From NCBI GenBank assembly GCA_001776545.1, contig MFBZ01000022.1, forward strand, positions 14,065 to 78,064: a stretch of 64,000 nt of DNA. Reading direction: 5' to 3'. Source of the DNA: Candidatus Curtissbacteria bacterium RIFCSPLOWO2_12_FULL_41_16. GTDB lineage: Bacteria; Patescibacteriota; Microgenomatia; Curtissbacterales; GWA2-41-24. A program made the translations under genes and the position numbers. Positions 34,028 through 54,579 of the stretch are shown here, piece after piece (within the stretch, counting starts at the first letter, position 1; every line of letters begins with the position of its first letter). Below the pieces are notes generated by a model, which worked only from the letters and a program-made list of their open reading frames with translations, did not search any database and had not been told where the DNA came from.

Positions 34028-34312
34028 AGAGCAATAGTAACACAAATTTAGGCCATGGCATATTTTTGTGTTATTCTTTGATTCATTATTTAATGGGTTT
34101 ATGAGATAATAGAGTCTAATAAACTTCCGAGGGCACTAAAGCCCTCGGTATTGTTCTTTAAGTTTACATGAGCGCAGAAAACCACCAACGTTTGAGATTT
34201 TTATCCCTCGGAAGTATGTATTCGCTTTTTTGCATTCATCCCCGCCTAAATATTCAATTTTTGGCGGGGATATCTAGCAAGCGAATATAAAATTGAGTCT
34301 TTAGCCAACTTT

Positions 34313-38905: not shown

Positions 38906-39355
38906 ATGAAGATATTCAACAAAAGAGCCCGTTATAAATACCAAATTCTGGAGAAGGTTGAGGCAGGTGTTGTTTTGACAGGGGCTGAGATTAAATCGAT
39001 AAGGGCAGGACGGGTTGATCTTTCGCAGTCTTTCGGGCGGATTGGCGATGGCGAGGTTTTCTTGGTTAATGCCTATATCAATCCCTGGATGGGGTCGGAG
39101 AGGTTTACTAACGAGAGACGTTCGCGTAAACTCCTGCTTCATAAAAAGCAGATTTTGGCATGGCAGGGGAAAATGGCAGGAGGCAGATTGACGCTGGTTC
39201 CCCTTTCAATTTATATCAAGGGGAATCTGGCTAAAGTTGAGCTGGCACTGGCCAAGAGTAGGGCAAAATTTGACAGACGAGCGGTTTTGAAGATGGAAGC
39301 TATCGAAAGGGATGTCGAGCGGGAGCTTAGGGGTGATAAGTCGGGGGGTTTTTGA
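38906..39355 (+). CDS. smpB: SsrA-binding protein SmpB
   Basis: 149 aa with the typical SmpB N-terminus (KYQILEKVEAGVVLTGAEIKSIRAG) and a basic C-terminal tail. Confidence 0.85.
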   Translation: MKIFNKRARYKYQILEKVEAGVVLTGAEIKSIRAGRVDLSQSFGRIGDGEVFLVNAYINPWMGSERFTNERRSRKLLLHKKQILAWQGKMAGGRLTLVPLSIYIKGNLAKVELALAKSRAKFDRRAVLKMEAIERDVERELRGDKSGGF

Positions 39356-40814
39356 CAAAAATGATAGCTTGATTGTCTTGGTAAACTATTTGCCAATCGG
39401 GCTTTAATTTTAGAACTGCTATCAATGGAAAACTTGGTGGTAAAAAAACAGCGTCGATTTGATACCTTTCAATTTTTTCTTCCCAATCTGGCGCAGCCTG
39501 AATTAAGTTGAGGTATTCGAGGACGAAAGAGCGGCCATTGATGATGAAATTATCCATAGCTCCCCAGTAGAAAACCTTGCGATTTTGGTTTTGGAAAATC
39601 ATAAAATTGCCCCAGTTGGCGTCGTTTAGGATTCGTTTTTCTGGTAAGTTTTTTTCAAGATACAAATTGGCCCTATAAGGCCATGGCCCATAAAATTTGA
39701 TGGTGGACTTGGTTGCCAAAAAGCGACTGTAGTTTTCAGGTGATAAGTAGGCTTGATTTATTTCGAGCAAATTTTTGGCTGCAGTCAAAAATAAGACTGT
39801 GAAGAGGGCAAAGACAGCAAAACGAACTGAAATTGAATTTAATATTTGACTTGCCAATTTTCCCTTAAATTCGAGATAAAGCTGATTGGCAATTGGGACC
39901 AGAAAGACAAACAGTGCAATCGTAAAACGAGATGTGATAAGAGATAAAAGTGAAAAAAGTAAGAGGAAAAACTTTTGCAAAGAGCCGATTTTTGTTTTAA
40001 AGAAGAAAAGAAAAAAGATTATGGCAAAGACTATCACTGCTAGAATCCAGCCGGTTCCCCCAGGTGTAATCAGAGGTTGCCAATCTAAATTGATGCTTGA
40101 GAGGTAAAGATAAGAATTTGAGGTCATAGTGATGGCTTGTAGCCAAGCGCTTAAAAAGTATGGATTGATTAAAGTAGCTAAGATGGAAAGCGTTGATACA
40201 GATAAAAGTGTCCTGGTTTTTTTAAACTGACGTTTTTTATCCTGCGCAAACACTTGCGAGGCAACTATAAGAGCCAAGAGGGTCACTATTCCTAAAATGA
40301 AAGAGCCATGGAAGTTGACCCAAAGAAAAAAGACAAGCGGCATTGCCCAAATAATTTTAGAATTCTGTTTTTGAAATTTGAGGAATAAGAAATAGGTTAT
40401 GGAGAGATAAAGAAGGCCAAAAACTCTCATCCTGCCGCCGGCAATAGTACTTGCCAATAGGACTGCCAATATTAAAAGAGGGTAGCTTACTTTGTTATCT
40501 GATAAAATTTGGGTTATTTTATAAATGAAAAAAAGACAAATAGTTAAGATCAATGAAAATAAGATACTAACCCCATAAAGTCCGAGTAATTTGTAACTTG
40601 CAAAAACTAATATTTCGCCTGCCCATGAGTGATATACGTATGGGTAATTAGATTGGGAGAATGAGAACAAATCTTTTTTGGGGATCGTCTGAGTGTTGAT
40701 GATGTATTCACCAACTCTTAAGTGCCAGCCAAAATCGGTGTCGGTGATGACTTGGAGAGAGAGGAAGAAGATGAAGACGAATGTCAAAAAAAGCAGGAAA
40801 GTTTTCTTGGTCAC
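39327..40814 (-). CDS. GT-C-fold membrane glycosyltransferase-like protein
   Basis: 495 aa with about 12 TM helices in the N-terminal two-thirds and a soluble C-terminal domain. The N-terminal DFGWHL motif suggests a PMT/ArnT/YfhO-like superfamily member. Confidence 0.4.
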   Translation of the reverse strand: MTKKTFLLFLTFVFIFFLSLQVITDTDFGWHLRVGEYIINTQTIPKKDLFSFSQSNYPYVYHSWAGEILVFASYKLLGLYGVSILFSLILTICLFFIYKITQILSDNKVSYPLLILAVLLASTIAGGRMRVFGLLYLSITYFLFLKFQKQNSKIIWAMPLVFFLWVNFHGSFILGIVTLLALIVASQVFAQDKKRQFKKTRTLLSVSTLSILATLINPYFLSAWLQAITMTSNSYLYLSSINLDWQPLITPGGTGWILAVIVFAIIFFLFFFKTKIGSLQKFFLLLFSLLSLITSRFTIALFVFLVPIANQLYLEFKGKLASQILNSISVRFAVFALFTVLFLTAAKNLLEINQAYLSPENYSRFLATKSTIKFYGPWPYRANLYLEKNLPEKRILNDANWGNFMIFQNQNRKVFYWGAMDNFIINGRSFVLEYLNLIQAAPDWEEKIERYQIDAVFLPPSFPLIAVLKLKPDWQIVYQDNQAIIFVKNPPTYHP

Positions 40815-40861
40815 TAAATACAGATTATAAACTTAATGTAACACTTGAGCGGAGGAGAATG

Positions 40862-41259
40862 TGGAGATGGAGGGTTTTGAGCCCTCGTCCAAGATTACAA
40901 ATAAAAAACATCTACAAGCATAGTCCAAGCTAAAAGCTAGTCCGCCTGTGGCGGAAATCTTTAAAGTCTCGTTTGAATTTTTAGCCGATTGACGAGCGAA
41001 ACTCAAACAAAGATCGATAGCTTCGATTTTTAATCTGATCAGAATTAAGAATCTACTCCCGGCTGAGTTTGTGCCCCAATGGCTTCACCGAGAAAAAGCC
41101 AAAGAGACAGGTTCTTAAGCTTTATGCAAAAGCCAAAGCTGGTCGAACCGGTGCGACATCTCTGTCTGCACTTAATTTTGATTCAAAGTTTAACGCACTT
41201 TAGAATCGTGTTCGGCTTGCAGTTTTTAAAGTGCAATCCTGTCGAAACGATACATCCCC
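40862..41259 (-). ncRNA. ssrA: tmRNA (transfer-messenger RNA)
   Basis: The minus strand reads 5' GGGGATGTATCGTTTCGACAGGATTGCAC... at the 5' end and ...GGACGAGGGCTCAAAACCCTCCATCTCCA at the 3' end. The acceptor stem GGGGATG pairs with CATCTCC, with one G-U pair. A T-arm (GAGGG/CCCTC) and the conserved UUCGAC(A/G)GG 5' motif are present. The internal tag-like frame reads GCA CCG GTT CGA CCA GCT TTG GCT TTT GCA TAA, giving APVRPALAFA*. smpB lies 1.5 kb away. CCA is not encoded. Confidence 0.75.
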
Positions 41260-41417
41260 TCGTCGAAGCAAGGCTTTGCTTCGACGACCTTAGACCTTCG
41301 GTCTTTGGTCTAGCGCAAGCCTGCTTCTCCTCTCAAAAATTCTGACGAATTTTTGGAAGACTAGAAGGAATTTTAGCAGAAATTAGCTTCAAAATCAAGC
41401 GGCGATGTAATATAAAT

Positions 41418-42134
41418 GTGATGGTCAATTTGCTCTTTGATTTTCTTTTCCCCAAACGCTGTGTTTCCTGCGGAAAGTTTGGCGCCTACATTTGTAAGGG
41501 TTGTTTTTCAAAAATTGAATATATCGAAAAGCCAGTTTGTTCAGTTTGCCAAAGACAGGCAATAGGCGGCAAGACTCATCCGGGATGTCGGAGCCGGTAT
41601 GGCCTTGATGGTTTGGTGGTGGCTTGTCGGTATCGAGGGCCGGTTAAGCGGGCAATTACCAAAGTTAAGTACAAATGGATCTATGATATTGAGAAAATCT
41701 TTGTGGATTTGACAGCAGACAATCTTTGGCGTTTTGATCTTCCGTCTGATCTGACAATAGTACCAGTACCTCTGCATTCAAAAAGAAAGCGATGGAGGGG
41801 TTTTAACCAAAGCGAGATTTTGGCCAAGTCTTTGGCCAAAAAGTTTGGGGTAGACTTGCGAGATGTTCTCATAAGAACTAGGGAAACCAAGAGTCAAGTT
41901 GGACTCAAAAGAGACGAGAGAAAAGAGAATGTCAAAGGGGCTTTTAGTCTCAACGCTATCCAAACCCGGTTTGGAATAGCTTCACAAACCGGGTTTGTTA
42001 GGAGTGTGGAAGGCAAAAACTTTATGCTTGTCGATGATGTCTATACCAGCGGCGCAACCATGGCGGAATGTTGTCGGGTTCTTAAAAAAGCAGGGGCAAG
42101 GCAAGTTTGGGGACTGACAGTGGCTTTGGGTTAG
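41418..42134 (+). CDS. ComF-family phosphoribosyltransferase (competence protein ComFC-like)
   Basis: 238 aa with two N-terminal CxxC pairs and a C-terminal PRTase motif (LVDDVYTSGATM). Confidence 0.75.
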   Translation: MMVNLLFDFLFPKRCVSCGKFGAYICKGCFSKIEYIEKPVCSVCQRQAIGGKTHPGCRSRYGLDGLVVACRYRGPVKRAITKVKYKWIYDIEKIFVDLTADNLWRFDLPSDLTIVPVPLHSKRKRWRGFNQSEILAKSLAKKFGVDLRDVLIRTRETKSQVGLKRDERKENVKGAFSLNAIQTRFGIASQTGFVRSVEGKNFMLVDDVYTSGATMAECCRVLKKAGARQVWGLTVALG

Positions 42135-42517
42135 GCTTTCAAAACATCAATGTCATATTGCCAAATCTTTTGGTCACTTGTAATTAGGGTTAAACTTTCG
42201 ATCTGAGATTGAGAAATTAACAATCTGTCGAATGGGTCTGCGTGGTAGTGAGGCAATTTTTGTATACCCAAGACGTGCGTCATTTGTATTGGTAATATAA
42301 TAAATCCGGATTGTTTTATTCCTTTTTCAAGAGTTATTGAAGTTTTTAATTTACCTTTCGCTCTTTTTATTACTATTTCCCAGATAGTGGCGGCGGATAA
42401 AATTATTGTGTTTTTAGGATTTTTGAGGATGTTGAATAAGTTTTTATCGAGTCTTTTTTTGTTTTCCATCCACCATATGAAGATATGGGTGTCCAACAAA
42501 AAGCCTTTGCTACTCAC
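42131..42517 (-). CDS. vapC: PIN-domain toxin VapC
   Basis: 128 aa with an LLDTHIFIW N-terminus and the acidic residues of a PIN fold. Its start overlaps the antitoxin stop. Confidence 0.7.
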   Translation of the reverse strand: MSSKGFLLDTHIFIWWMENKKRLDKNLFNILKNPKNTIILSAATIWEIVIKRAKGKLKTSITLEKGIKQSGFIILPIQMTHVLGIQKLPHYHADPFDRLLISQSQIESLTLITSDQKIWQYDIDVLKA

Positions 42518-42743
42518 CGTAAAATAGCTTGTTTATTTCTGGGTCTTCTTCATCAAAATCATCAGAAACCCAAATCTTCCCTTTCCATAAGCCTGGCTTG
42601 CGCGGCTTGAGTTCTTCTTTGTAGGGAGTGAGTTTGACGACGGGTTTGCCGGCTTTGGCAATTATAACCTCTTCGCCTTTTTGTGTCTTTTCTATAAGTT
42701 TTGAAAGATTGGTTTTTGCTTGGTGAATATTAAATATTTGCAT
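42510..42743 (-). CDS. Phd/YefM-family antitoxin
   Basis: Start trimmed to MQIFNIHQAKTNLSKLIE..., the typical Phd/YefM N-terminus. The gene is 8 bp into the VapC ORF. The longer 115-aa ORF would run into the tRNA region. Confidence 0.65.
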   Translation of the reverse strand: MQIFNIHQAKTNLSKLIEKTQKGEEVIIAKAGKPVVKLTPYKEELKPRKPGLWKGKIWVSDDFDEEDPEINKLFYGE

Positions 42744-42831
42744 ATTAACTCCCTTAGCTAACTTAGCTAAGTATAACTTATAAACGTAGCTTTCGTCAAG
42801 ACTTGATTTTTGGTAAAATGTGTTGTTGCTT

Positions 42832-42915
42832 GGAGGGTGGGCCGGACGGCAAGGCACAAGTTTGCTAAACTTGCTGGGCGAAAGTCCAGAGTGGGTTCGA
42901 CTCCCACACCCTCCG
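42832..42915 (+). tRNA. tRNA-Ser (anticodon GCT)
   Basis: Hand-folded cloverleaf: acceptor GGAGGGT/ACCCTCC, anticodon stem CAAGT/ACTTG with loop TTGCTAA, a long variable arm, T-arm GTGGG-TTCGACT-CCCAC and discriminator G. Confidence 0.8.
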
Positions 42916-42923
42916 CTTGATTA

Positions 42924-43010
42924 GGTGGGGTGCGAGAGTGGATTAATCGGATTGTCTTGAAAACAATTGTGGCAGCAATGTCACCGTGGGTTCGAATCCC
43001 ACCCCCACCG
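42924..43010 (+). tRNA. tRNA-Ser (anticodon TGA)
   Basis: Acceptor GGTGGGG/CCCCACC, anticodon stem ATTGT/ACAAT with loop CTTGAAA, an 18-nt variable arm and T-arm GTGGG-TTCGAAT-CCCAC. Confidence 0.8.
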
Positions 43011-43228
43011 CCGAAACCCTTGGGTTGCTCCAAGTCCCATCCACTATGGTCAATTAGCCTATTGGGGCTTGCCAAAAATTCGCAGAAAAGCTTCAGTGTC
43101 CCAGTTATAGCCTGTAATGTTTAAAATCGCCCAAAATGCCCTAAAGGTAATCGCCCACGGTTCTAAGCTTTTGTCGAAAAACAGCCAAAACTAGCAATTT
43201 TTTGTTGAAAAGAGGCTTATTGAAGAAG

Positions 43229-44548
43229 TTATTGGATATTAAGTTGGCGGTCGATTAGCTTGAACCTTGAATTAACACCTTTGAGGATTTTGATGCGTTC
43301 TTCCGGGCTTCCAAACTGTAGTATGTGTAGTAAATAATCTCTCAACATATCAGTTTGTGTTTGGGTATATTCCATCTTGATTTGTGATCCAGCATTATTG
43401 TGAGGCGTCATTTCAAATCTTGATGATTGGTCAGACATCACTGCAAATTTGAGATTCTGTAATCTCTTAATTTCAATCTTGAATTCCTGCATGAGATATG
43501 AGGTATTCAGTCTTATTTCGGGAAGATAGCCGATTAGTTGTTTTATCAATTCTTGCTCGGTAATGTATGGCTCAGGACAATCATACTTTTTGATCCTGTT
43601 GCAATGGTAGTAAATATGGGAGTTTACGATATTTGCTCTTGTCCTCCTGTATTTAATCTCAGCAGTGACACTGCCGCCGCAGCTTCCGCAGATACATATT
43701 TTCTTAAAAGGGAATAATTGTTTATTCCATTGCCTCGGTGCGACCTGAAGCTGTATTTGCACCTTTTCAAAAGTCTGTTTTGATATTAGCGGTGGGTGAG
43801 TACCCTTATACCAGGTGTCCCCATACTTAAACTCACCGTAGTAAAAGGGGTTTTGCAGAACAAAGTATACTTTGCTAAGCGCCAGTCTGCAGCCGTTTTT
43901 GGTTGTAAATTTAACGTCATCAAGCCATTTTTTAACCATCCTGCCGGAAAATCCTTTGTATGCAACCTTGTAAAACATTTCCTTCACAACTGGTGCCCGT
44001 TCAGGATCAAGTTCTACTATTGATATCCGGTTTTCTTTAAGAATATTTTTGTAACCAATTGGTGCTACTCCTGGCCGAATGCCAATCTCGCACTTATTTC
44101 TAAGCCCCCGTTTTACATTTACTCCCCGGTTGTCGTTTTCTAGTTTGGCCTGAGAGCAGAGAATCATAAGTAGAAATTTCTCGTTTGGGTTATTACTAAA
44201 TGTTTGTGAGTAGGTTTTAATTTGAACCAGTTTCTCTTGATCCATCAAATCAACAATTTTTCCCAAATCTCCGGCATTTCTGCTTAAGCGGTCTGGTGCC
44301 CAAGTTATAATGCCGCTAAGTTCACCTTGCTCGATATCAATTAGGAGTTGGTTGAATACTGGCCTTTGCCCGGAGAGTTTTGCCGAATGGCTTTCTTCTC
44401 TAATTTCCTTAATATGTAAGCCTTCTCGGTTAGCCAAAGTCTGCATTTCCTTTATTTGAGAATCGATGCTCATTGCTTGTCTTTCATCAGATTCAGAAGA
44501 TTTGCGGGCATAGAGGCAATAGTTTATCTTTGGGCTTTGACTATCCAT
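43229..44548 (-). CDS. Large serine recombinase (resolvase N-terminal domain + recombinase domain + zinc ribbon)
   Basis: YARKSSESDERQAMSIDSQ catalytic-serine motif at the N-terminus. About 440 aa with a C-terminal Cys cluster (CICGSCGG...CNRIKKYDC). It lies directly downstream of a tRNA-Ser pair. Start trimmed to MDSQ. Confidence 0.8.
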   Translation of the reverse strand: MDSQSPKINYCLYARKSSESDERQAMSIDSQIKEMQTLANREGLHIKEIREESHSAKLSGQRPVFNQLLIDIEQGELSGIITWAPDRLSRNAGDLGKIVDLMDQEKLVQIKTYSQTFSNNPNEKFLLMILCSQAKLENDNRGVNVKRGLRNKCEIGIRPGVAPIGYKNILKENRISIVELDPERAPVVKEMFYKVAYKGFSGRMVKKWLDDVKFTTKNGCRLALSKVYFVLQNPFYYGEFKYGDTWYKGTHPPLISKQTFEKVQIQLQVAPRQWNKQLFPFKKICICGSCGGSVTAEIKYRRTRANIVNSHIYYHCNRIKKYDCPEPYITEQELIKQLIGYLPEIRLNTSYLMQEFKIEIKRLQNLKFAVMSDQSSRFEMTPHNNAGSQIKMEYTQTQTDMLRDYLLHILQFGSPEERIKILKGVNSRFKLIDRQLNIQ

Positions 44549-44721
44549 ATTCAGGGGTACAGAGTACCGCAATAAACATGGAAGTCTAGCTAGGGGAACT
44601 ACTATGGCCAATTGCGAAAGCCTCTCCTCTCGATAATCAAGCCTCTGTTTAGTATAATTCTGGCTCTAATATATGCTTGGCAAATAGATATTTAAAATCC
44701 GTTGATTGTTAAGGAGATTGA

Positions 44722-46023
44722 ATGCATAATGAAGTTGACATGCCTGGTCAAGGACAAAAAGAGATTCAGCTAGATGAGAATCAAAGAGAATTATCTCAAC
44801 GAGTTTTTCAAAGGGCAAGGCAATTAATACAAAAATTCGGAGAAGACTCTACTTGGGGTGAAAGTTTACCAAAAGAAGTAGTTTATCTAGATGTTGAAGA
44901 TTCTGGAGATAGACGAGGCAAAAATAGAATAGTGATTTGGGGAGATGGTGAAGGTGACAAAGTAATCATTTTTTACAATAAAACTTATTCGAAGGGTGTT
45001 TACTTAAATAATCAAGTTACTCTAAAGGACGGTGAGGTAGTAAGACATAATGCCGATATTGAAGATTGGCATGGCGACTCTCCAATTATTAATCCCCCGT
45101 GGCAAGAGCCACCTACACCTGAGATGGTAAAAGTCATGGGCTCCCGTTTTCACCCAGCAGAGTATTCTCACGGTTCACTTAACCTTTCTGAGATTGATAG
45201 ATTTTTATCAGAGGGTAAAGTGGTCTCGAATCCGAAAAAGGATCGAATAGTTGAAGAAGCTATAAAAAGATTAAGTGAGGTTGAGAAAGAAAGAGTGTTT
45301 GGCAAACCCCAAGATGCTGCCCAAAAAGCGAGAGATATATGGTCGGAAGAAGCGATTTTAAGAGATTTAGAAAGAATTAAAAGTTTACCAGAGGAAGAAC
45401 AAAGAGATGTTGAAGAAAGATTAGCCTTATCTTACGTAGAAGCTGCTTTTAAAGAGCTTTCCGCTATAAATTCCCTTGCCAACGACACTCCTGAAGCCGA
45501 AACAAGGCAAAGAATTTTGGATGAAGCAAGAGAGGCAATCAGACGAGAGAAGAAGTTTCATGTCCTAGCGAAGCAGCTTTCTAGAACTGTTTCCGGTGAA
45601 CCGATTGATTGGTCAAAGATCAAGCTTAGAGAGTTTGGCCGGATGTACGAGAGGCATGAGACTTCAGAGTATTGGCAACTTGCAAGACTCGTTTATAAAA
45701 AAGTAATCCAGCTTTCCGAAAAAGATGGCGATACAGCTATTCAAGCTGCGGCTACAATGGAGCTTGCAAGAGTGTTAGAAAAGTTGGGTAGTGACATTAC
45801 TGAAGTCGATAGACTTTATCAGTCTGCGCATCAACTTAATTGGGCTTCAAGAGGTGATAGAAACTACAATAGGCAGGTAACCATTGAAGGTAATATCTTA
45901 AGAAGAAATTTGAAAAAAGGGGATGTTGGTGGTACTTTAAACTCAGCTAAAAGTTTAGGCTGGATGCTGCTTCACGACCCCAAGCAGGCAATCGTACTAG
46001 GTAAGAAGGTTTTAGGTGGTTAA
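44722..46023 (+). CDS. Hypothetical protein (433 aa), island cargo
   Basis: No recognisable motif; charged and helical. A TPR-like gene follows 4 nt later. Confidence 0.4.
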   Translation: MHNEVDMPGQGQKEIQLDENQRELSQRVFQRARQLIQKFGEDSTWGESLPKEVVYLDVEDSGDRRGKNRIVIWGDGEGDKVIIFYNKTYSKGVYLNNQVTLKDGEVVRHNADIEDWHGDSPIINPPWQEPPTPEMVKVMGSRFHPAEYSHGSLNLSEIDRFLSEGKVVSNPKKDRIVEEAIKRLSEVEKERVFGKPQDAAQKARDIWSEEAILRDLERIKSLPEEEQRDVEERLALSYVEAAFKELSAINSLANDTPEAETRQRILDEAREAIRREKKFHVLAKQLSRTVSGEPIDWSKIKLREFGRMYERHETSEYWQLARLVYKKVIQLSEKDGDTAIQAAATMELARVLEKLGSDITEVDRLYQSAHQLNWASRGDRNYNRQVTIEGNILRRNLKKGDVGGTLNSAKSLGWMLLHDPKQAIVLGKKVLGG

Positions 46024-46026
46024 TTT

Positions 46027-46722
46027 ATGAGTGAACAAAAACTTAGTGCAAAAGAACACCACAGGCAAGCAGAAGAGTTAAGGGAAAGCGACAGACATCT
46101 GGAAGCTTTAAAGGAGCTAGATCAAGCTGTCGTTCTATACCAGGAAGATAAAGACTATCAAGGTATTTGTGAAGCATTGCAAAGTAGAGTGCTAACTTTT
46201 AAGCATCTTTATTTTCTTTCAAAAGATACAGCCTTTGCGATAATTGCCCAAAAGGAGGCGGAGGCAAGTCTTGAGGTTGCCCAGCAACATAGTGTTGGCA
46301 ATAAATTGGGGTCTTGTTACTTTAGACTCGGAGAAATTGCAATGATCTTTGACAACTTTCCTCAAGCAATTGATTGGTATCAAAAGGCGCTTGAGGATTA
46401 TCAGGGTAGCCTTTCAGAAAAAGGTGACTATAGATATCATCTAGGTGAAGCACTATACAAAAATGGCCAAAAAGAAGAAGGCAAGAAAACAATTCTGGCA
46501 GGACTTGATGAGATACAAAGAGGTGCACCCGAAGTTGATCCTTTTTTAGTGCATGTTTGGGAATCAGGTCTTCATATGAAGCTAGCCGATCTTTTAAGAG
46601 ACGATGAGCCAGAAGAAGCAAGAAAGCATCTAGATGAAGCCAGGAAAATTGCTGATTCTGACCAAAGACTTATCATTCGCAGAAGACAGATTGAAGAGGT
46701 CGGGAAATCTTTTCGAAATTAG
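46027..46722 (+). CDS. TPR-repeat protein
   Basis: 231 aa with tetratricopeptide-like repeats (AIDWYQKALEDYQG..., YHLGEALYKNGQ...). Confidence 0.5.
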   Translation: MSEQKLSAKEHHRQAEELRESDRHLEALKELDQAVVLYQEDKDYQGICEALQSRVLTFKHLYFLSKDTAFAIIAQKEAEASLEVAQQHSVGNKLGSCYFRLGEIAMIFDNFPQAIDWYQKALEDYQGSLSEKGDYRYHLGEALYKNGQKEEGKKTILAGLDEIQRGAPEVDPFLVHVWESGLHMKLADLLRDDEPEEARKHLDEARKIADSDQRLIIRRRQIEEVGKSFRN

Positions 46723-46743
46723 CTTGTTATTTTCCTAATAATT

Positions 46744-47553
46744 ATGTTTGGAAACACTATTATTTCTAAGTTGGAAGCGGAAATTTCAAAAAAACCATCT
46801 GTCATTGGTCTCGTTTTGGTTGGATCTTACGCTCGAGAAAAAATATACAGTGCAAATGAATATTCCGACATGGAAGTTTACGTCATAGTTTTGGACGGCA
46901 ATGTATCCAAAGTCGAGAAAGATTTAATTGAAATTGCAAAACAACTGGGAGAGATTATATTCCACTACAAAAATAGGTGGGCTGGATTTTCGGTTGTTTT
47001 TGATAACTTATTTCGTCTTGAGCTTCCAGTGATTAAACAGTCAGATATTAAAAGTGTTTTTTTAAGACCGATTGCGCAACCAGTCAAAATTTTGATAGAC
47101 AAAACCAACGGTGAATTAAAGAAGGCTTTGGATACTAGACAAAAAGAAATAGATATCGAATCTCTGTTTCAAGAAACCTTTTTTGATTTCTGGTATATGG
47201 CTGTTTTGGCAGTGCAATATCTTAAAAAAGGAGAATATTGGAATGCCAGACACGCTCAGGAAGTTGTTCTTGTACCTGCACTTATAAAACTTTTTGAGAT
47301 TCTGGATAACAAAGAAGCTTTAATGCTTGAAACCAATAAAAGAATAGAGCAATTTCTTAGCGAAGAAAGACTAAATGTTCTAAAAAAGATTTCCAGTGTT
47401 TACAATTCAGACAACATAAAGGATGTTTTAAAAATCAGTATGGGGGAGTTTGTAAGCGTTTGTAACGAAATTAAGAAAAAATATGGCTTCAGGTACGAGG
47501 AAGATGTTGTGGATAAAGTTAAACCAAAATTAGACAAACTGCTTGGTTCCTGA
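46744..47553 (+). CDS. Nucleotidyltransferase, ANT(6)/streptomycin-adenylyltransferase-like
   Basis: 269 aa. The N-terminal LVGSYAREKIYSANEYSDMEVYVIV segment fits the Pol-beta-type NTase motif (GS...D.E/D) and the overall size and pattern of aminoglycoside 6-adenylyltransferase-family proteins. Confidence 0.45.
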   Translation: MFGNTIISKLEAEISKKPSVIGLVLVGSYAREKIYSANEYSDMEVYVIVLDGNVSKVEKDLIEIAKQLGEIIFHYKNRWAGFSVVFDNLFRLELPVIKQSDIKSVFLRPIAQPVKILIDKTNGELKKALDTRQKEIDIESLFQETFFDFWYMAVLAVQYLKKGEYWNARHAQEVVLVPALIKLFEILDNKEALMLETNKRIEQFLSEERLNVLKKISSVYNSDNIKDVLKISMGEFVSVCNEIKKKYGFRYEEDVVDKVKPKLDKLLGS

Positions 47554-47887
47554 GTTAAAGCATTAAATATATCGAACTATATCAAATCTTAATTTGAGAC
47601 AAGCCCTTTTTATAATCGCTTGCGATTACATCGCGCGCTCTTGTAACGCAAGAGCGATATAGTGTCTCATTTGTCTCATTTAGCCTCGAAGATGAGACAC
47701 TAAACCTCTCCGATTTGGTACAATACCCATCGGGTGACTATGGGAGCGTTGGGTCCCAGACCCACATGCTCCGCCAAGCGAAGGAAGGTTCGTTCATAGT
47801 GCAAACGAAGTGCACTATGCTTCGCAAAGCGAACATCCTGCCGCCTCCGCTGAAGTGCCGTTTGCGACGGTTTGATTCTGCTACAAT

Positions 47888-48556
47888 TTGGCTGTGAAAC
47901 TCTTGCTTACATCTTCCGGCTTCAGAAATAAGTCTATTGCCAAGGCTCTTGCAGACTTAGTTGGCAGATCTTTTGCTAAAACAAATTTGGCATTTATTCC
48001 TACTGCCGCAAATGTGGAGGAGGGTGACAAGTGTTGGTTGATTGATGACTTAACGAACTGTAAGAAACTTGGATTTAAGATGATAGATATTGTAGACATT
48101 TCTGCCATAGCTAAAGAACTTTGGGAGCCAAGATTAAGTGCTGCAGATGTTTTGATGTTTGGGGGAGGAAATACTTTTCATTTAATATACTGGATTCGAA
48201 AGTCTGGGCTGGAGAAACTTCTACCCCGTTTACTCAAACAGAGGGTGTATGTGGGAATTAGCGCTGTAAGTATGGTCACGAGCAAAAGAATCCTTCTAAG
48301 TGAATCCAAGAAGCTATACTATGAGGACCTGAAAGGTCATCAGGACGAAAGAGGGCTTGGTTTTGTAAGTTTCCAGATTCGGCCACATCTGAATAATAGC
48401 TTTTTCCCAAATGTAAAAGAAGAAATTTTAAAAGAACAGGCGAAAAAGATTCCGGAGCAGATTTATGCTCTTGATGACGAGATGGCAATTAAGGTTGAAG
48501 ATAAGAACATCGAGGTTGTAGGAGAAGGTAAGTATTTACTGCTTAATGTAAGTTAA
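47888..48556 (+). CDS. Peptidase S51 (dipeptidase E / cyanophycinase-like) family protein
   Basis: 222 aa with LLLTSSGF at the N-terminus and FGGGNTFHL..., resembling the S51 Ser-His-Glu triad context. Confidence 0.55.
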   Translation: MAVKLLLTSSGFRNKSIAKALADLVGRSFAKTNLAFIPTAANVEEGDKCWLIDDLTNCKKLGFKMIDIVDISAIAKELWEPRLSAADVLMFGGGNTFHLIYWIRKSGLEKLLPRLLKQRVYVGISAVSMVTSKRILLSESKKLYYEDLKGHQDERGLGFVSFQIRPHLNNSFFPNVKEEILKEQAKKIPEQIYALDDEMAIKVEDKNIEVVGEGKYLLLNVS

Positions 48557-48778
48557 ATCGATGAACCGCACGTGGGAGCTTTACCCGCCCGAATTTTTGA
48601 GGCTGCCAGCTCGGGTGCTATCCCTCCGGGTAGGTGAATTGAAAACCCGCAAATAGTATAATCTATACTCACTCGAACGGTGACTGGTTGCAGAGCGATT
48701 TGCTCTAATTGCTCTCGGAAAAAAGTTCCAACATAGTCAACTAGGCACCGCCGAAGCCCTATAACATTTGACTTCCTA

Positions 48779-49606
48779 GTGTGGGTTAAGTATAATTCGC
48801 ATATGTCGTCAGTTGAAAGAGGTTTTATACCAATAACTGAAGCCCAAAGCGAACGAGTCCGATTCCAGGTTGGTTTACCTGATTTTGTGGACCAAGACAG
48901 GATTGGGGTGAATCTTCGTGAGATTCAGAGGCTGTGCCAAATCGGGGGAATTCACAGGCTTGTGGTTCTTGGTGTTGAAGATTTAGATACTTCCAAGACT
49001 GTGCCTCAAATACTTGGTTTTAATAGCCAAGGTTCTACCTACATGGGGAAAGCCGCCTCTAAGGCTGATGTGTCACCATCAGAAAGTTTTTCTGCACCGG
49101 GGTGGGAAGGTAAAAGTCATCCACAACAGTGGTCAGATGCACTCATTGCTGTCAATATGAACCAAGTAAGAGATAGAATTGGAAATGACAAGAGATGGAG
49201 TGAAGGAATTCGTTCTCCAAAAGCATGGTCGCATTATTTGAACAGAGGTATAAAAGATGGGATTTCAAAAGAGGGGATTGCTCAATTGCTAAACTTGAGA
49301 AATAAAGTTGATTTGGCTATTTTTGCTGCTTTTGTCGGTGCTGCTGCAACAGATGCGGTTCCGCTACCGCGGTGGTTTGACCCACACATACCGAGTGTTC
49401 GCGAGGCTATACAAGCCTACTTTACATGGTCCATAACGTGGAATGTTATAGAGAGGTTCATGGATGGCAAGAGGCCTTTCCTAAGTGATGGGAATAATAG
49501 ATACACCGCCTTCTACGGGCCTGAAGTTGATAGGGCTGTACTCCTCAAGGTTCTTACTAAAACTAGAACGCTGGTAAAGCAAATTGAAGGTCAAGCAACA
49601 CAATAA
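48779..49606 (+). CDS. Hypothetical protein (275 aa)
   Basis: No known motif. Preceded by a repeated ~120-nt upstream module. Confidence 0.35.
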   Translation: MWVKYNSHMSSVERGFIPITEAQSERVRFQVGLPDFVDQDRIGVNLREIQRLCQIGGIHRLVVLGVEDLDTSKTVPQILGFNSQGSTYMGKAASKADVSPSESFSAPGWEGKSHPQQWSDALIAVNMNQVRDRIGNDKRWSEGIRSPKAWSHYLNRGIKDGISKEGIAQLLNLRNKVDLAIFAAFVGAAATDAVPLPRWFDPHIPSVREAIQAYFTWSITWNVIERFMDGKRPFLSDGNNRYTAFYGPEVDRAVLLKVLTKTRTLVKQIEGQATQ

Positions 49607-49879
49607 TTCCCTAAAATTGTATAATCTATACTCGAACGGTGACTGGTTGAAGGGCAATTTGTTCTAATTGCTTTTGGAAAAAAGTTCCAACATAGTCAAA
49701 CAGACACCGCTTGTTAAAACTAAACTTTGCTTATCGCCGAGCCTGACTCGGCTTATCGCAAGTTTGTTTTTCCTCTTCAAAATCGCAAGCGATTTTGAGA
49801 TTTTTACTCTTCTCTTTTAAAATTCATTCCGGCAATTTTGATAGTTGTTTTGTGATAAACTTGTAGTTGGATAGTTTTT

Positions 49880-50455: not shown

Positions 50456-50617
50456 AAATTCAATTGTTAAATTGTTTCATTGTTGAATTGTTAGACTGTT
50501 TTGAGTATCTAGTTCCCTTGTAGTAAAATTCCACTGGGTGCTTGTAGTTTCCGCCAGAGGCGGATCAGCCCATGGGTTCTGAGATCCTCAGGATCGAATG
50601 ACCTTTGGCTGACATTT

Positions 50618-50691
50618 GTCCCTGTAGTTCAATTGGACAGAACGCTTCCCTGCGAAGGAAGAGATTGGCCGTTCGAGTCGGCCCAGGGACA
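50618..50691 (+). tRNA. tRNA-Arg (anticodon GCG)
   Basis: Acceptor GTCCCTG/CAGGGAC, D-arm GTTC/GAAC, anticodon stem CTTCC/GGAAG with loop CTGCGAA, T-arm GGCCG-TTCGAGT-CGGCC and discriminator A. Confidence 0.7.
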
Positions 50692-50850: not shown

Positions 50851-50941
50851 GGAGGAGTACCCAAGAGGTCGTACGGGCACCGTCTCGAAAACGGTTGGGG
50901 CCGCAAGGCTCACGTGGGTTCGAATCCCACCTCCTCCGCCA
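50851..50941 (+). tRNA. tRNA-Ser (anticodon CGA), CCA encoded
   Basis: Acceptor GGAGGAG/CTCCTCC, anticodon stem ACCGT/ACGGT with loop CTCGAAA, long variable arm and T-arm GTGGG-TTCGAAT-CCCAC, then GCCA. Confidence 0.75.
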
Positions 50942-51099
50942 CGTAATAGATTGCTTGAGCAATTTAAACGTGGCTGGGACGTTAAATTTTATAGAATAAA
51001 ATTTAACGTCTCGCCTAAGATGTATTATGTTTACATACTCCAAAGTCAGAAAAATAGCATTTTGTCAAGTACCCCTTTTAGTAGACAATCATTCTTCGT

Positions 51100-51965
51100 C
51101 TAGGTTTGCGTTTCTTTAAGCCTGTATTGTTCCGGTGACATTTTCAGTCTTGTATGGATTCTTGCCCTGTTGTAGTAGTTGATTGTTAAATGGATTGCCG
51201 CAATGAACTCACCAAGCGTATCGAATCTGTTAAACTCAAGACCTAAATCAGTCTTAAAGTTGTTGTAGAAAGACTCCTGAAAACCATTTTCCCAAGGTGA
51301 TGATTTGGCGCTCATGGATATTTGAATACCCAGTGAATTAAGGAACTTCGTGTACTCTTTTGATGTGTACTCTGATCCTTGATCGGTATGGATAATTCTG
51401 GGCAAGCTGCCCAGCGTCTTTATCGCATCTACAATCGCCTCAATTACCATTTCTTTAGTATGTCTTGCGGCAACAAACCAACCCACAATTTCCCTGGTTA
51501 CCAGATCCATATATGTTGCCAGGTATACTACCTTTGAAAAGTAGATCATGTGGGTAAAATCTCCAACCAAGACTGTACCGGGTATAATCGGGCAGGTACC
51601 TTTGATTAGGTTTTGATATGGCGCTGGAGCTTTTTTCAAATCCCTTCTTTTCGTCCATCTGGCCTTCCTTTTGTATGGCTTTATGTTATACAGCTTCATT
51701 ACTCGACTCGCCTTACCCTTTTCTTGCCAAGGGAAAGGGCAAGAGCTATTCTTCTGTGGCCATAAGCGGGATTGAGAGCCAAAGTTGATAGAATCTGCTC
51801 CCTTAAAAGTTCATCCTGACGGATTCTGGCTTGGCTATTGGTTTTATATGTTGTTGATCTGGATATTTTAAGAAGACGGCAGAGGAAGGTATGACCAAGG
51901 CTTTTGACCTTAGACTGGATTAAAGCGAGGATTTCCCTTCTTTTTTTTTGACTTCTCAAGTTCAA
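51100..51965 (-). pseudogene. IS3-family transposase OrfB, interrupted (two ORF pieces in different frames)
   Basis: Piece 51699..51965 ends in RRVE, followed by TAATG. Piece 51100..51699 continues with the integrase core. Together the two pieces resemble a full IS3 OrfB. Confidence 0.55.
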
Positions 51966-52182
51966 AGGTTAATACTCCAATGATCTGTTTGAGCTGCGAG
52001 TTTTCATTTTTTAGCCTGTTATACTCAAGGAGGCTGATTGTACCCATGGCTTTTCGAGATAGCCAGGTGTAGATGGTTTTCTCGCTGACTCCATACTGGG
52101 CAGCAACTGCTGCTACTTTCTCGCCGCTCTTTACTTTTGTAAGTATTTCGGCCTTAACTTCGGGATTAACCGGTTTAAACAT
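51910..52182 (-). CDS. IS3-family transposase OrfA (HTH)
   Basis: 90 aa with an HTH segment (AAQYGVSEKTIYTWL) and a leucine-zipper-like C-terminus. Confidence 0.7.
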   Translation of the reverse strand: MFKPVNPEVKAEILTKVKSGEKVAAVAAQYGVSEKTIYTWLSRKAMGTISLLEYNRLKNENSQLKQIIGVLTFELEKSKKKKGNPRFNPV

Positions 52183-52253
52183 TTATTTCACCTCCCAATT
52201 GAAGTATATTTTATGAAGAACTACTGTCTATTTTAAGGGGTACCTGTCGTTTG

Positions 52254-52520
52254 TTAGTTTAACCCTACGCCTTTCTCGATATACTTTTGAATGAGGTGTT
52301 GATATGGAACATGTAGCTTACCTGCTTCTACTTTTACTTTAAGAAGTAACTGTTCTGGAAGCCTTATTGAAATTAGCCGCTTGGTTTTCTTAAGGCTTGG
52401 AAAGACCATGCCTCTTTTGAAATCTGATGGTTCAAAGTACTGCGACAGGTCAAGATTAGCCCAAAATTCTGCTTCCTCTTCCTCACTTTTGAACTTTGGT
52501 ACGACGAGTTGTTTTTTCAT
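52254..52520 (-). CDS. brnA: BrnA-like antitoxin
   Basis: 88 aa with an N-terminal MKKQLVVPKFKSEEEEAEFWANLDLSQY motif and a C-terminal RHH-like segment, located downstream of BrnT. Confidence 0.6.
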   Translation of the reverse strand: MKKQLVVPKFKSEEEEAEFWANLDLSQYFEPSDFKRGMVFPSLKKTKRLISIRLPEQLLLKVKVEAGKLHVPYQHLIQKYIEKGVGLN

Positions 52521-52797
52521 ATAAATTCACCTCCTTTTTATTGATGTCGCGCGAAGAAATAATTCTAATTTTGTCTCCTCTTCTGGTAAAAATCTGGTAC
52601 AGCAATCTTCTATTTTGCGTTTTCCCGATGATAATGAAACGTTTTTCTATTGTTGAGTGCCTAATATCTTCATCAAGGGCATTGTCTGTATCAAAGAATA
52701 CCTGTTCTGCTTCCTCTGGTGTAACATTATGACGTGCGATATGAGCTATATTCGCTTCATCCCATTCAAACCCTGCAACATCATCAAGTAAGCTCAT
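52483..52797 (-). CDS. brnT: BrnT-like (DUF497, RelE-fold) toxin
   Basis: Start trimmed to MSLLDDVAGFEWDEANIAHIARHNVTPEEAEQVF, the hallmark BrnT N-terminus. Confidence 0.6.
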   Translation of the reverse strand: MSLLDDVAGFEWDEANIAHIARHNVTPEEAEQVFFDTDNALDEDIRHSTIEKRFIIIGKTQNRRLLYQIFTRRGDKIRIISSRDINKKEVNLYEKTTRRTKVQK

Positions 52798-53179
52798 TAC
52801 TGTATATACAATATATGTATATATTACTATAATGTTCAGTATTTTGTCAATGATCCGCAACCAGCAGTAAGTAAGAAGAAATGAGACACCCTTTTTTACA
52901 GTGTCACATTTGTTCCATTTAGCCTCGCACGTGAGACACCATGTTCTGAAGATTTGATACAATACGATGGTTAGGAGTAGTGGGGACTATAGGAGCGCTG
53001 GGCTCCAGACCCACGTGCTCCGCTCGTCGAAACAAAGCTTTGCTTGTCGCCGAGTCTGACTCGGCTTAGCGCAAGCTTGTTTCTCCTCTTCAAAATTGCT
53101 TCGCAATTTTGAGATTTTTCTTGTTTCGTAGAATTTTCCTAAATCTGGTAAAATCCCATTGTGCCGATTAAGCGGATTT

Positions 53180-53901: not shown

Positions 53902-53954
53902 ATTTTAGTATTACTAATGCTGATTGTCAATAGACCTTCTAAATCTGTTAAAAT

Positions 53955-54518: not shown

Positions 54519-54579
54519 CAAGTTATAAATTAGAGAGAAGCTCCTTGGGAATATAGTCTTCTGGTATAATTTTGGCGCT

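What the first reader, a model, noticed from the sequence alone, without database searches (positions are those of the whole stretch)
40862..41345. tmRNA on the minus strand whose upstream (promoter-side) 85 nt is a copy of an island repeat module (R3)
The tmRNA call rests on three things. The 5' end reads GGGGATGTATCGTTTCGACAGG. There is a 3' T-arm and acceptor. There is an internal tag-like frame ending ALAFA*. Immediately upstream of its 5' end, the plus-strand segment 41258-41345 (ctcgtcgaagcaaggctttgcttcg…hairpin…tagcgcaagcctgcttctcctctcaaaaatt) is about 85-90% identical to segments at 53020-53130 and 49730-49810 inside the recombinase island. Each copy keeps a hairpin (AGACC-TTCG-GGTCT, or GCCGAG-NNNNN-CTCGGC) followed by TAGCGCAAGCYTG-YTTCTCCTCT. 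The shared unit may be a portable promoter or leader. It could also mark recombination between the island and the ssrA locus, since ssrA is a classical island integration target.
Basis: partly seen in the sequence, partly recalled or inferred. Interest (0 to 1): 0.55.

Follow-up and report, generated by a model that had tools for sequence, protein, structure and literature searches.

The report
Hairpin insert flush against tRNA-like genes
The tmRNA gene is real, and the ~100 bases in front of it are one copy of a small, previously undescribed hairpin-forming insert. In Curtissbacteria (CPR bacteria) this insert sits exactly at the ends of tRNA and tmRNA genes, where RNA processing would trim it off.

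Summary
**Observation.** The tmRNA gene is confirmed at 40859-41259 (-): Rfam 117.9 bits, tag ADRDVAPVRPALAFA, smpB nearby. The upstream repeat "R3" is also real, with three copies: 41259-41358, 49710-49801 and 53023-53115. The tmRNA copy is only 52-60% identical to the other two, not 85-90%.

**What R3 is.**
- It is a ~95-105-nt three-helix module with strong covariation (21 of 29 pairs changed on both sides). It matches no Rfam family.
- I found 14 distinct copies in the window and in Curtissbacteria relatives. In every copy the TCGTCGAAAC end abuts the acceptor-stem end of a tRNA-like gene. That is either the 5' end (tmRNA x5, tRNA-Val x2, tRNA-Ser x1) or the 3' end (tmRNA, tRNA-Ser).

**At ssrA.** Four relatives have the conserved promoter only ~10 nt from G1. 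The window and four other genomes keep that promoter and short leader, with R3 inserted exactly at -1/+1. R3 is therefore a transcribed leader insert, not the promoter.

**The island copies.** The two "island" copies are the original 3' trailers of tRNA-Ser(tga) and tRNA-Ser(cga). Elements that integrated at those tRNA 3' ends pushed them away. They are not evidence of island-ssrA recombination.

**Best reading (0.5).** R3 is a non-autonomous hairpin insertion element that targets the ends of tRNA-like genes. RNase P or 3' processing removes it from the transcript, so it does no harm. How it moves is unknown.

The parts
40859..41259 (-). tmRNA (ssrA) gene. The mature 5' end G1 is at 41259. Tag peptide ADRDVAPVRPALAFA*.
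   Evidence: ARAGORN. Rfam RF00023, 117.9 bits, E 1.9e-45, full-length model match.
41259..41358 (+). R3 copy 1, coordinates and strand as matched by model R1. It has three helices: a bulged stem P1, a variable cap P2, and a distal hairpin P3, with conserved unpaired CTCCTCT. It lies flush with tmRNA G1. Read on the minus strand, it is the body of the predicted ~105-nt pre-tmRNA leader.
   Evidence: CM R1, 83.1 bits. Fold z-scores -5.4 (+) and -5.2 (-). Junction shown.
41370..41398 (-). Predicted ssrA promoter, TTGATT-17-TAAAAT with an upstream TG. It is homologous to the ssrA promoters of relatives both with and without the insert.
   Evidence: Consensus scan. Aligned leaders of 11-15 ssrA loci. 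Function is inferred, not shown.
38906..39355 (+). smpB, the protein partner of tmRNA.
   Evidence: Pfam PF01668, E 4.1e-45.
49710..49801 (+). R3 copy 2. It is interpreted as the original 3' trailer of tRNA-Ser(tga). It now lies 6.7 kb from that gene, behind the pseudo-tRNA end ...GACACCGC, and upstream of the conserved 191-aa gene.
   Evidence: CM 97 bits. Synteny with L005. Junctions.
53023..53115 (+). R3 copy 3. It is interpreted as the original 3' trailer of tRNA-Ser(cga). It now lies 2.1 kb away, behind a pseudo-tRNA-Ser 3' half (D10, ...GTGCTCCGC).
   Evidence: CM 100 bits. D10 aligns with the T-arm and acceptor 3' halves of real tRNA-Ser genes.
42924..43012 (+). tRNA-Ser(tga), the integration target. 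The island begins right after ...CACCGCC with GAAACCCT.
   Evidence: ARAGORN. The junction motif CCGCC|GAAnCCCT recurs at window 48751 and at the L016 serine-recombinase island.
43013..49709 (.). Tandem inserted elements between tRNA-Ser(tga) and R3 copy 2. They carry a large serine recombinase (43229-44611, -), a TPR protein, a nucleotidyltransferase, a peptidase S51 and a 275-aa ORF. Pseudo-tRNA-Ser ends lie inside the array at 47733-47774, 48671-48751 and 49630-49710.
   Evidence: Pfam. Repeats D3, D9 and D10. Alignment A2.
50851..50941 (+). tRNA-Ser(cga), the presumed original neighbour of R3 copy 3.
   Evidence: ARAGORN. Inference from the junction alignment.
50942..53022 (.). Inserted segment between tRNA-Ser(cga) and R3 copy 3. 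It carries an IS3-type transposase (51100-52182, -), BrnT/BrnA (52254-52800, -) and the D9/D10 pseudo-tRNA end (52897-53023).
   Evidence: Pfam. Repeats.

Best explanation
**What it is.** The ~100 nt upstream of the tmRNA 5' end is one copy of a small, structured, non-coding insertion module, R3.
- It has a bulged stem capped by a variable hairpin, then a conserved unpaired CTCCTCT, then a second hairpin.
- In Curtissbacteria it is found only against the acceptor-stem terminus of tRNA-like genes.
- The same end (TCGTCGAAAC) always faces the gene.

**At ssrA.** It was inserted exactly at the leader/G1 junction, which is the RNase P cleavage site, downstream of the pre-existing promoter. The inferred consequences are:
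- tmRNA is made with a ~105-nt structured leader instead of a leader of a few nucleotides.
- RNase P removes that leader.
- The insert is therefore tolerated.

**At tRNA 3' ends.** There it would be a trailer removed by 3' processing (inferred).

**The 'island' copies.** Both are such trailers of tRNA-Ser genes. Later integration of genomic islands at the tRNA 3' termini displaced them.

**Nature of the module.** Most likely it is, or was, a non-autonomous mobile hairpin element that targets the end of the tRNA-like fold on one DNA strand. The enzyme that moves it is unidentified.

**Shown:** the family, its structure, the flush junctions, and filled versus empty sites. **Inferred:** transcription from the conserved promoter, removal by RNase P or 3' processing, and mobility together with its mechanism.
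For: **Family and structure.**
- There are 14 distinct copies at 61-104 bits with CM R1. The next-best hit in 264 kb scores 17.8 bits.
- 96.8% of helix cells are paired, against 76.7% in shuffles (0/500 shuffles reach it) and 29-56% when partners are slid. 21 of 29 pairs changed on both sides (MAFFT-based version).

**Adjacency is unbiased.** All 8 loci recovered with patterns containing no tRNA sequence abut a tRNA-like end. Seven are intact genes and one is a duplicated tRNA-Ser 3' end.

**Filled versus empty at ssrA.**
- L014, L016, L018 and L019 have the -10 box 9-10 nt from G1.
- The window, L020, L022, L002 and L017 keep the same promoter and leader, with R3 between them and G1.

**Filled versus empty at tRNA-Ser(gga).** L010 versus L014 shows this on the 5' side, and L007 versus L019 on the 3' side. 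L004 versus window/L007/L019 shows it in the Ser(gct)-Ser(tga) spacer. None has a target duplication.

**Occupancy is not monophyletic.** Filled L017 is sister to empty L019 in both the ComF and tmRNA trees.

**Decay and a hot spot.** L021 retains only the distal hairpin. A second, unrelated ~105-nt insert (R4) occupies the same junction in L004 and L010.

**Side bias.** R3 lies on the same side of its gene, relative to the ComF->DnaG backbone, in 11 of 12 loci (p 0.006; 8 of 9, p 0.04, if orthologues are merged).
Against: - No transposase or recombinase is linked to R3 in the window or in any locus (Pfam).
- Copy number is low, at 2-3 per genome sampled, unlike typical MITEs.
- Copies within one genome are not near-identical. 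c1 versus c2/c3 is 52-60%.
- Structure is preserved by compensatory change even between distant genomes at the same locus. That also fits a selected function.
- The sequence left of the insert is not a constant short motif. It is CCGC, CCAC, CCCC, GTCC or CTCC.
- No excised or circular form and no within-population polymorphism has been seen.
- Transcription and RNase P processing of the leader are untested.
- Loci fetched through ComF are biased towards the ssrA/tRNA-Ser neighbourhood.
Confidence: 0.5

Rival explanations
1. R3 is a selected, functional RNA module of tRNA/tmRNA transcripts. As a structured leader or trailer it would control processing, stability, termination or expression. It would spread among loci by duplication or gene conversion rather than by transposition.
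For: - All three helices show strong structure-preserving covariation.
- The unpaired motif CTCCT (AGGAG on the other strand) is invariant.
- The module has been retained in the ssrA leader of five genomes whose ComF proteins are only ~62-75% identical.
- The distal hairpin looks terminator-like in copies c2 and c3.
Against: - The module is transcribed in opposite senses in the two configurations: R3 sense as a trailer and its complement as a leader. A sequence-specific RNA function therefore cannot be common to both.
- There is no strand signal from wobble pairs. G.U-only versus A.C-only cells number 8 v 9 (A3) and 2 v 7 (A4).
- A T-run follows hairpin 3 in only 2 of 14 copies.
- Most ssrA and tRNA-Ser genes in relatives lack it and instead have a 9-10-nt gap between the -10 box and G1.
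- A short SD-TTG-CGN-stop reading frame on the minus strand is absent in L001, L010 and L017.
Confidence: 0.3
2. R3 is the chromosomal half of an attachment site (attB), or a remnant of an element arm, for the recombinases that integrate islands at tRNA-Ser and tmRNA 3' ends.
For: - In the window, the serine-recombinase island joins the chromosome exactly at the tRNA-Ser(tga) 3' terminus.
- Its far junction is ...CACCGC|TTGTTAAAAC, which is the start of R3 c2. The first ~20 nt of R3 would therefore have been the right half of attB.
- Several other small elements with duplicated tRNA ends occupy the same termini.
Against: - R3 also sits at the 5' ends of tmRNA, tRNA-Val and tRNA-Ser, where no island is present and where the adjoining sequence differs from a tRNA 3' half.
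- R3 occurs at island-free 3' ends (L004, L007, L003).
- Covariation maintains hairpins, which attB half-sites do not need.
- R3 itself is not flanked by duplicated tRNA ends.
Confidence: 0.1
3. One reading: R3 is a portable promoter, or it marks recombination between the recombinase island and the ssrA locus.
For: - R3 lies upstream of ssrA.
- Two copies lie within or next to inserted DNA.
- The end of hairpin 3 (TTGAGA) can serve as a -35-like hexamer for a predicted promoter downstream of c2.
Against: - The ssrA promoter lies outside R3 and is conserved in genomes without R3.
- R3 contains no conserved -35/-10 pair.
- In six copies R3 lies downstream of the tRNA-like gene.
- The island copies are explained by displacement of tRNA-Ser trailers.
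- The flanks of ssrA are backbone genes, with smpB on one side and comF on the other.
Confidence: 0.04

Closest known systems
IS200/IS605-derived non-autonomous elements (PATEs) and their 'peel-out-paste-in' single-strand transposition
   Same: - No coding capacity.
- Stem-loops near both ends.
- No terminal inverted repeats of note.
- No target-site duplication.
- Filled and empty sites that differ cleanly, compatible with scarless excision.
- Polar insertion with one defined end next to the target.
- A suggestive one-strand or one-side bias.

The family features are as described in PMC10055086.
   Different: - No constant 4-5-nt target-adjacent motif. The flanks are CCGC, CCAC, CCCC, GTCC or CTCC.
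- No TnpA (Y1) gene was found nearby.
- Copy number is low.
- The target appears to be the end of a tRNA-like fold rather than a short sequence.
Bacterial TIR-type MITEs that are co-transcribed with neighbouring genes (e.g. Neisseria Correia elements, Rickettsia palindromic elements; from my own knowledge and the review PMC10969869 listed, not read)
   Same: - About 100-150 nt long and able to fold into a long hairpin.
- Carried inside transcripts of adjacent genes.
- Sporadic presence or absence among relatives.
   Different: - Those elements have clear terminal inverted repeats and target duplications. They are also numerous and scattered.
- R3 has neither feature.
- R3 is confined to the termini of tRNA-like genes.
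Repetitive hairpin-forming / double-hairpin elements of mitochondrial genomes (RHE/DHE)
   Same: - Small one- or two-hairpin repeats in intergenic regions, many next to tRNA genes.
- Complementary substitutions between copies.
- No duplications at insertion sites in the Allomyces case.
- Mobility inferred from presence or absence between relatives, by an unknown mechanism.

Source: PMC2800124.
   Different: - Those elements are organellar, usually shorter and much more numerous.
- They have not been reported to lie flush and polar against tRNA termini.
- There is no sequence relationship to R3.
Genomic-island att sites at tRNA/tmRNA 3' ends
   Same: The location is the same. The window itself shows islands joined at tRNA-Ser 3' termini.
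   Different: - R3 is not flanked by a duplicated tRNA end.
- R3 carries no integrase.
- R3 also occupies 5' termini.

Membership tests
tmRNA (Rfam RF00023) | Full-length match to the covariance model above the gathering score | tested here: met
   117.9 bits against a gathering score of 47, model positions 1-374.
tmRNA (Rfam RF00023) | tRNA-like domain plus an internal tag reading frame that ends in a hydrophobic tail and a stop | tested here: met
   ARAGORN tag ADRDVAPVRPALAFA*.
tmRNA (Rfam RF00023) | SmpB partner encoded in the genome | tested here: met
   PF01668, E 4.1e-45, at 38906-39355.
IS200/IS605-type non-autonomous element (PATE) | Stem-loops near both ends, and no terminal inverted repeats | tested here: met
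   P1/P2 starts 7 nt from the left end. P3 ends 3-7 nt from the right end. The ends share only a weak TCRAAAY similarity.
IS200/IS605-type non-autonomous element (PATE) | No target-site duplication; clean (scarless) empty sites | tested here: met
   Filled/empty pairs L010/L014, L007/L019 and the ssrA leaders.
IS200/IS605-type non-autonomous element (PATE) | A constant short target-adjacent motif 5' of the left end, matched by a guide in the left end | tested here: not met
   The left flanks vary: CCGC, CCAC, CCCC, GTCC, CTCC. No guide complementarity was found.
IS200/IS605-type non-autonomous element (PATE) | A cognate Y1 (TnpA) transposase in the same genome | not testable with these tools
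   None in the 64-kb window or the fetched loci. Whole genomes could not be scanned.
TIR-type MITE (e.g. Correia-like) | Terminal inverted repeats and a target-site duplication | tested here: not met
   No duplication at any filled/empty pair. The termini are not inverted repeats.
Integron attC site | R''/R' core sites (RYYYAAC ... GTTRRRY) and linkage to an integron integrase or cassette array | tested here: not met
   The corresponding positions read TCGAAAC ... GTTTCTC. No IntI is present: the only recombinases are a large serine recombinase and an IS3 transposase.
Intrinsic (rho-independent) terminator | GC-rich hairpin followed by a T-run | tested here: not met
   Only c2 and c3 have the T-run. 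12 of 14 copies lack it.
Sigma70 promoter module | Conserved -35/-10 hexamers at a fixed position in the module, upstream of the gene served | tested here: not met
   No conserved hexamer pair in A3/A4. The ssrA promoter lies outside the module. Six copies lie downstream of the gene.
Any described RNA family (Rfam 15) | Match at the gathering score, or a suggestive E-value | tested here: not met
   Nothing overlaps R3 at the gathering threshold or at E<=5 on 40800-55000.

The most novel reading that the evidence does not exclude
R3 (and perhaps R4) may represent a previously undescribed kind of bacterial mobile element. It would recognise the end of a tRNA-like fold, probably as single-stranded DNA where both the sense and antisense strands of a tRNA gene form a cloverleaf. 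It would insert precisely at the acceptor-stem terminus. That would use the host's RNase P and 3'-processing sites as a safe harbour, much as IStrons use self-splicing. This would be structure-directed targeting of tRNA gene termini in bacteria.
Probability: 0.25. Interest if true: 0.75.

Novelty: new variant of a known kind. Interest (0 to 1): 0.55.

Why it matters
- **Mobile DNA in CPR bacteria.** Few mobile or repeated elements have been characterised in these very small genomes. This adds a family with a sharp, unusual rule: it sits flush and polar against the ends of tRNA-like genes, at exactly the RNase P and 3'-processing junctions.
- **A possible new targeting principle.** If the element is mobile, that rule points to a targeting principle not known for bacterial elements.
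- **tmRNA maturation.** tmRNA in some Curtissbacteria would be made from a precursor with a ~105-nt structured leader. That bears on ssrA annotation and on how tmRNA matures.
- **Reconstructing island history.** A module found behind a pseudo-tRNA end marks the original tRNA flank, so it helps trace island integration. In this window it shows that about 6.7 kb and about 2.1 kb of DNA were added at two tRNA-Ser genes.
- **A reusable search tool.** The covariance model built here can be used to annotate the family.

Tried and rejected
1. **R3 as a promoter.** There are no conserved hexamers, and the real promoter lies outside it.
2. **A conserved mini-ORF on the minus strand (AGGAG, 8 nt, TTG-CGN-stop).** It is present in most copies but absent in L001, L010 and L017, so it is probably a by-product of the junction sequence.
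3. **A fourth, diverged R3 copy at 47775-47880.** The CM finds nothing there. It belongs to another small element family (E2) that ends in a duplicated tRNA 3' end.
4. **In-place inversion of the tRNA-like gene next to a static R3, as the source of the 5' configuration.** This is rejected for ssrA. The promoter and short leader are continuous with empty-site genomes, and R3 lies between them and G1.
5. **Using G.U versus A.C cells to decide which strand is the RNA.** There is no asymmetry.
6. **All-against-all clustering of tRNA flanks to find more module families.** Neighbouring tRNA genes swamped the result.
7. **GC skew to place the origin.** Skew is positive across the whole window, with no switch at dnaA.
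8. **Database searches.** There is no match in Rfam, viral contigs, phage records or plasmid records.
9. **Literature searches for a described tRNA-terminus repeat in bacteria or CPR.** Nothing relevant was found.
10. **Integron attC and intrinsic-terminator readings.** The defining features are not met.

Full report
**1. The observation**

The tmRNA gene is genuine. ARAGORN places it at 40861-41259 on the minus strand with the tag ADRDVAPVRPALAFA*. The Rfam tmRNA model matches full-length at 40859-41259 with 117.9 bits, E 1.9e-45. smpB lies 1.5 kb away at 38906-39355.

The repeat is also genuine.
- A profile built from the copies finds exactly three, at about 41257-41358, 49707-49806 and 53020-53120, with E 6e-23 to 2e-31.
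- All three lie in the same orientation.
- Identity was overstated. Copies 2 and 3 are 84% identical, but the tmRNA copy is only 60% and 52% identical to them over the whole unit. About 90% holds only in the core.

**2. Anatomy of the module**

Each copy folds, on either strand, far better than shuffled sequence, with z from -4.4 to -5.4. The layout, read on the + strand, is:
- a 7-nt lead-in, (C)TCGTCG;
- a bulged 13-bp stem, P1;
- a variable hairpin cap, P2;
- an unpaired, invariant CTCCTCT;
- a second hairpin, P3 (CAAAAT...ATTTTG).

No Rfam family matches it at the gathering threshold or at E<=5.

**3. Copies elsewhere**

I searched public collections with two patterns that contain no tRNA sequence. 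They recovered 2 genome loci and 6 metagenome loci, and nothing in viral contigs. The ComF protein next to ssrA identifies the organism as Candidatus Curtissbacteria, in the CPR. I used it to fetch 15 syntenic loci.

A covariance model built from 12 copies finds 14 distinct copies at 61-104 bits. The next-best hit in 264 kb scores 17.8 bits.

Covariation is strong.
- 96.8% of helix cells pair, against 76.7% in shuffles (0/500 shuffles reach it) and 29-56% when partners are slid.
- 21 of 29 pairs show changes on both sides.
- The unfitted MAFFT alignment gives 94.5% paired and 18 of 29 pairs.
- The helices are almost purely Watson-Crick: 388 WC cells, 2 G.U and 7 A.C. There is no strand asymmetry.

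**4. The rule**

In every copy the TCGTCGAAAC end lies against the acceptor-stem terminus of a tRNA-like gene.

| Configuration | Gene | Loci |
|---|---|---|
| Flush with the 5' end, gene on the opposite strand | tmRNA | window, L020, L022, L017; L002 with a 5-6-nt gap |
| Flush with the 5' end, gene on the opposite strand | tRNA-Val(gac) | L001, L008 |
| Flush with the 5' end, gene on the opposite strand | tRNA-Ser(gga) | L010 |
| Flush with the 3' end, gene on the same strand, after N73-C | tmRNA | L003 |
| Flush with the 3' end, gene on the same strand, after N73-C | tRNA-Ser(gct) | L004 |
| Flush with the 3' end, gene on the same strand, after N73-C | tRNA-Ser(gga) | L007 |
| Behind a tRNA-Ser-3'-end-like sequence | none intact | window c2, window c3, L005 |

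All 8 loci found by pattern alone obey the rule, so the adjacency is not a sampling artefact.

**5. ssrA: filled versus empty sites**

I compared 15 ssrA loci.
- Four (L014, L016, L018, L019) have a conserved promoter (TTGATT-like, 17 nt, then TAAAAT, TACAAT or TAGAAT) whose -10 box lies 9-10 nt from G1.
- Five (window, L020, L022, L002, L017) keep this promoter and short leader. R3, read as its complement, sits exactly between them and G1.
- L003 has R3 at the 3' end instead.
- L004 and L010 carry a different, mutually homologous ~105-nt structured insert (R4) at the same junction.
- L021 keeps only a hairpin that matches the distal hairpin of L020's R3, so it looks like an internally deleted remnant.
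- L012 and L023 have other leaders of about 50 and 37 nt.

Occupancy is not monophyletic. Filled L017 is sister to empty L019 in both the ComF and tmRNA trees.

Clean filled/empty pairs also exist at other sites: the tRNA-Ser(gga) 5' side (L010 v L014), its 3' side (L007 v L019), and the Ser(gct)-Ser(tga) spacer (L004 v window/L007/L019). None shows a target duplication.

In the window, then, R3 is an insertion into the ssrA leader and not the promoter. I infer, but have not shown, that the gene is transcribed from 41398-41370 as a precursor with a ~105-nt leader that RNase P removes at 41259.

**6. The 'island' copies**

The backbone order in relatives is smpB-tmRNA-comF-tRNA-Ser(gct,tga)-191-aa gene-tRNA-Arg(gcg)/Ser(cga)-NUDIX-tRNA-Ser(gga)-dnaG-rpoD.

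In the window, 6.7 kb lies between tRNA-Ser(tga) and R3 c2.
- This DNA carries a large serine recombinase and other cargo.
- It starts right after ...CACCGCC with GAAACCCT.
- The same junction (CCGCC|GAAGCCCTATAAC) recurs at 48751. It also occurs at the serine-recombinase island of L016 (CCGCC|GAACCCTATAATG).
- The inserted DNA ends in ...GACACCGC, directly followed by R3 c2 and then the 191-aa backbone gene.

In L005 the same R3/191-aa arrangement is preceded by 18 nt identical to the tRNA-Ser(tga) 3' end of L020.

R3 c3 is preceded by a sequence (D10) that aligns with the T-arm and acceptor 3' halves of real tRNA-Ser genes. It lies 2.1 kb from tRNA-Ser(cga), beyond an IS3 transposase and a BrnT/BrnA pair.

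The simplest reading is that c2 and c3 were the 3' trailers of these two tRNA-Ser genes and were displaced by later integrations. This explains why the module appears both 'in the island' and at ssrA without any exchange between them.

**7. Mechanism and rivals**

I favour a non-autonomous insertion element that targets tRNA-like gene termini and is tolerated because RNA processing removes it (confidence 0.5).
- For: sporadic, non-monophyletic occupancy; clean empty sites; constant polarity; decay remnants; a hot spot shared with another insert; and a side bias. R3 lies on the same side relative to the backbone in 11 of 12 loci (p 0.006; 8 of 9, p 0.04, with orthologues merged). GC skew is positive throughout the window.
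- Against: no associated enzyme, low copy number, no constant target motif, and long-term maintenance of structure.

The rivals:
- **A selected RNA function (0.3).** Covariation and the invariant CTCCT/AGGAG motif fit it. However, the module is transcribed in opposite senses in the two configurations, shows no wobble-pair strand signal, and is absent from most orthologous genes.
- **An att-site role (0.1).** The window's island junction fits it. The 5'-end copies, the island-free copies and the hairpin covariation do not.
The comparative data contradict both.

**8. Comparison with known systems**

The closest mechanistic resemblance is to IS200/IS605-derived PATEs. These have stem-loops near both ends, no target duplication, scarless donor sites and polar insertion next to the target (PMC10055086). 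One defining feature, a constant target-adjacent motif, was tested and not met. A cognate transposase could not be sought genome-wide. I therefore do not file R3 as a member.

TIR-type MITEs, integron attC sites and intrinsic terminators each fail a defining feature.

Mitochondrial repetitive hairpin or double-hairpin elements are a functional analogue of equally uncertain mobility (PMC2800124).

I found no description of a bacterial repeat that lies flush and polar against tRNA and tmRNA termini.

**9. Verdict**

The tmRNA is ordinary. The repeat is a real, new, structured element family with an unusual and sharply defined location rule.

The main caveats are:
- the sample is modest (14 copies, mostly from one chromosomal neighbourhood);
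- whole genomes could not be scanned;
- there is no expression or mobility data.

Noticed in passing
window 43013-49709: This looks like a tandem array of inserted units at tRNA-Ser(tga). Each unit ends in a pseudo-tRNA-Ser 3' end (47733-47774, 48671-48751, 49630-49710). Two left junctions share CCGCC|GAARCCCT. Only the first unit carries a recombinase, a large serine recombinase at 43229-44611. The L016 serine-recombinase island has the same left junction.
   Followed up: partly
window 47775-47860; L016 ~13904-14030; L017 between 11132 and 11268: A second family of small elements (E2, 75-125 nt, hairpin ATAGTGCA...TGCACTAT) sits at tRNA-Ser 3' ends. Unlike R3, each ends in a duplicate of the tRNA 3' end. 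A third family (E3) occurs in L010, downstream of tRNA-Ser(gga), and in L005 1-65.
   Followed up: partly
L004 1731-1840 (= L006 2910-3019); L010 9252-9361 (= L011): R4 is a different ~105-nt structured insert, predicted MFE -33 kcal/mol. It lies exactly between the ssrA promoter/short leader and tmRNA G1. I found it only at ssrA.
   Followed up: partly
window 53130-53192 v 53933-53995: The promoter and first codons of the NUDIX gene are duplicated. A PIN/MazE-type toxin-antitoxin pair (53180-53901, minus strand) lies between the two copies, suggesting the cassette inserted with a local duplication.
   Followed up: no
window 47658-47774 and 52897-53023: A ~120-nt repeat (D9/D10, 84-86% identical) combines three parts: an inverted repeat GTGTCTCA...TGAGACAC, a TGnTACAAT extended -10-like box on the + strand, and a pseudo-tRNA-Ser 3' half. 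One copy lies upstream of the peptidase S51 gene and the other precedes R3 c3.
   Followed up: partly
L009-L023 compared with the window: Single tRNA-Ser genes, the Ser(gct)/Ser(tga) pair, tmRNA and smpB flip orientation between otherwise syntenic Curtissbacteria genomes. Small HNH or GIY-YIG endonuclease genes sit next to several of them (L009, L010, L014, L017, L021).
   Followed up: no
L001/L002 (contigs CAZLVB010000026.1 and CAZLVB010000002.1): This MAG is labelled 'uncultured Gammaproteobacteria'. Its ComF (64% identical to the window's), synteny and tmRNA mark it as a Curtissbacteria relative, so the label looks wrong.
   Followed up: partly
window 51100-52182 (-): An IS3-family transposase is split into three ORFs: HTH at 51910-52182, an 88-aa ORF with no hit at 51699-51965, and rve at 51100-51699. 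It is either frameshift-expressed or decayed.
   Followed up: no
window 5962-10608: The classical origin-region genes are present: yidC-like, dnaA (7832-9190) and dnaN (9445-10608). However, GC skew stays positive (0.05-0.25) on both sides of them, so the window shows no skew switch.
   Followed up: partly
window 50463-50495 and 61197-61237: Short tandem arrays of an 8-nt unit (ATTGTTAA-like) occur in two intergenic regions.
   Followed up: no
window 33452-34045 (-): A 197-aa protein has a PaaX-central/Cas2-like domain (E 8e-20; Cas2 E 5e-6). It lies among type IV secretion pilin-like genes, and no CRISPR array was noticed.
   Followed up: no
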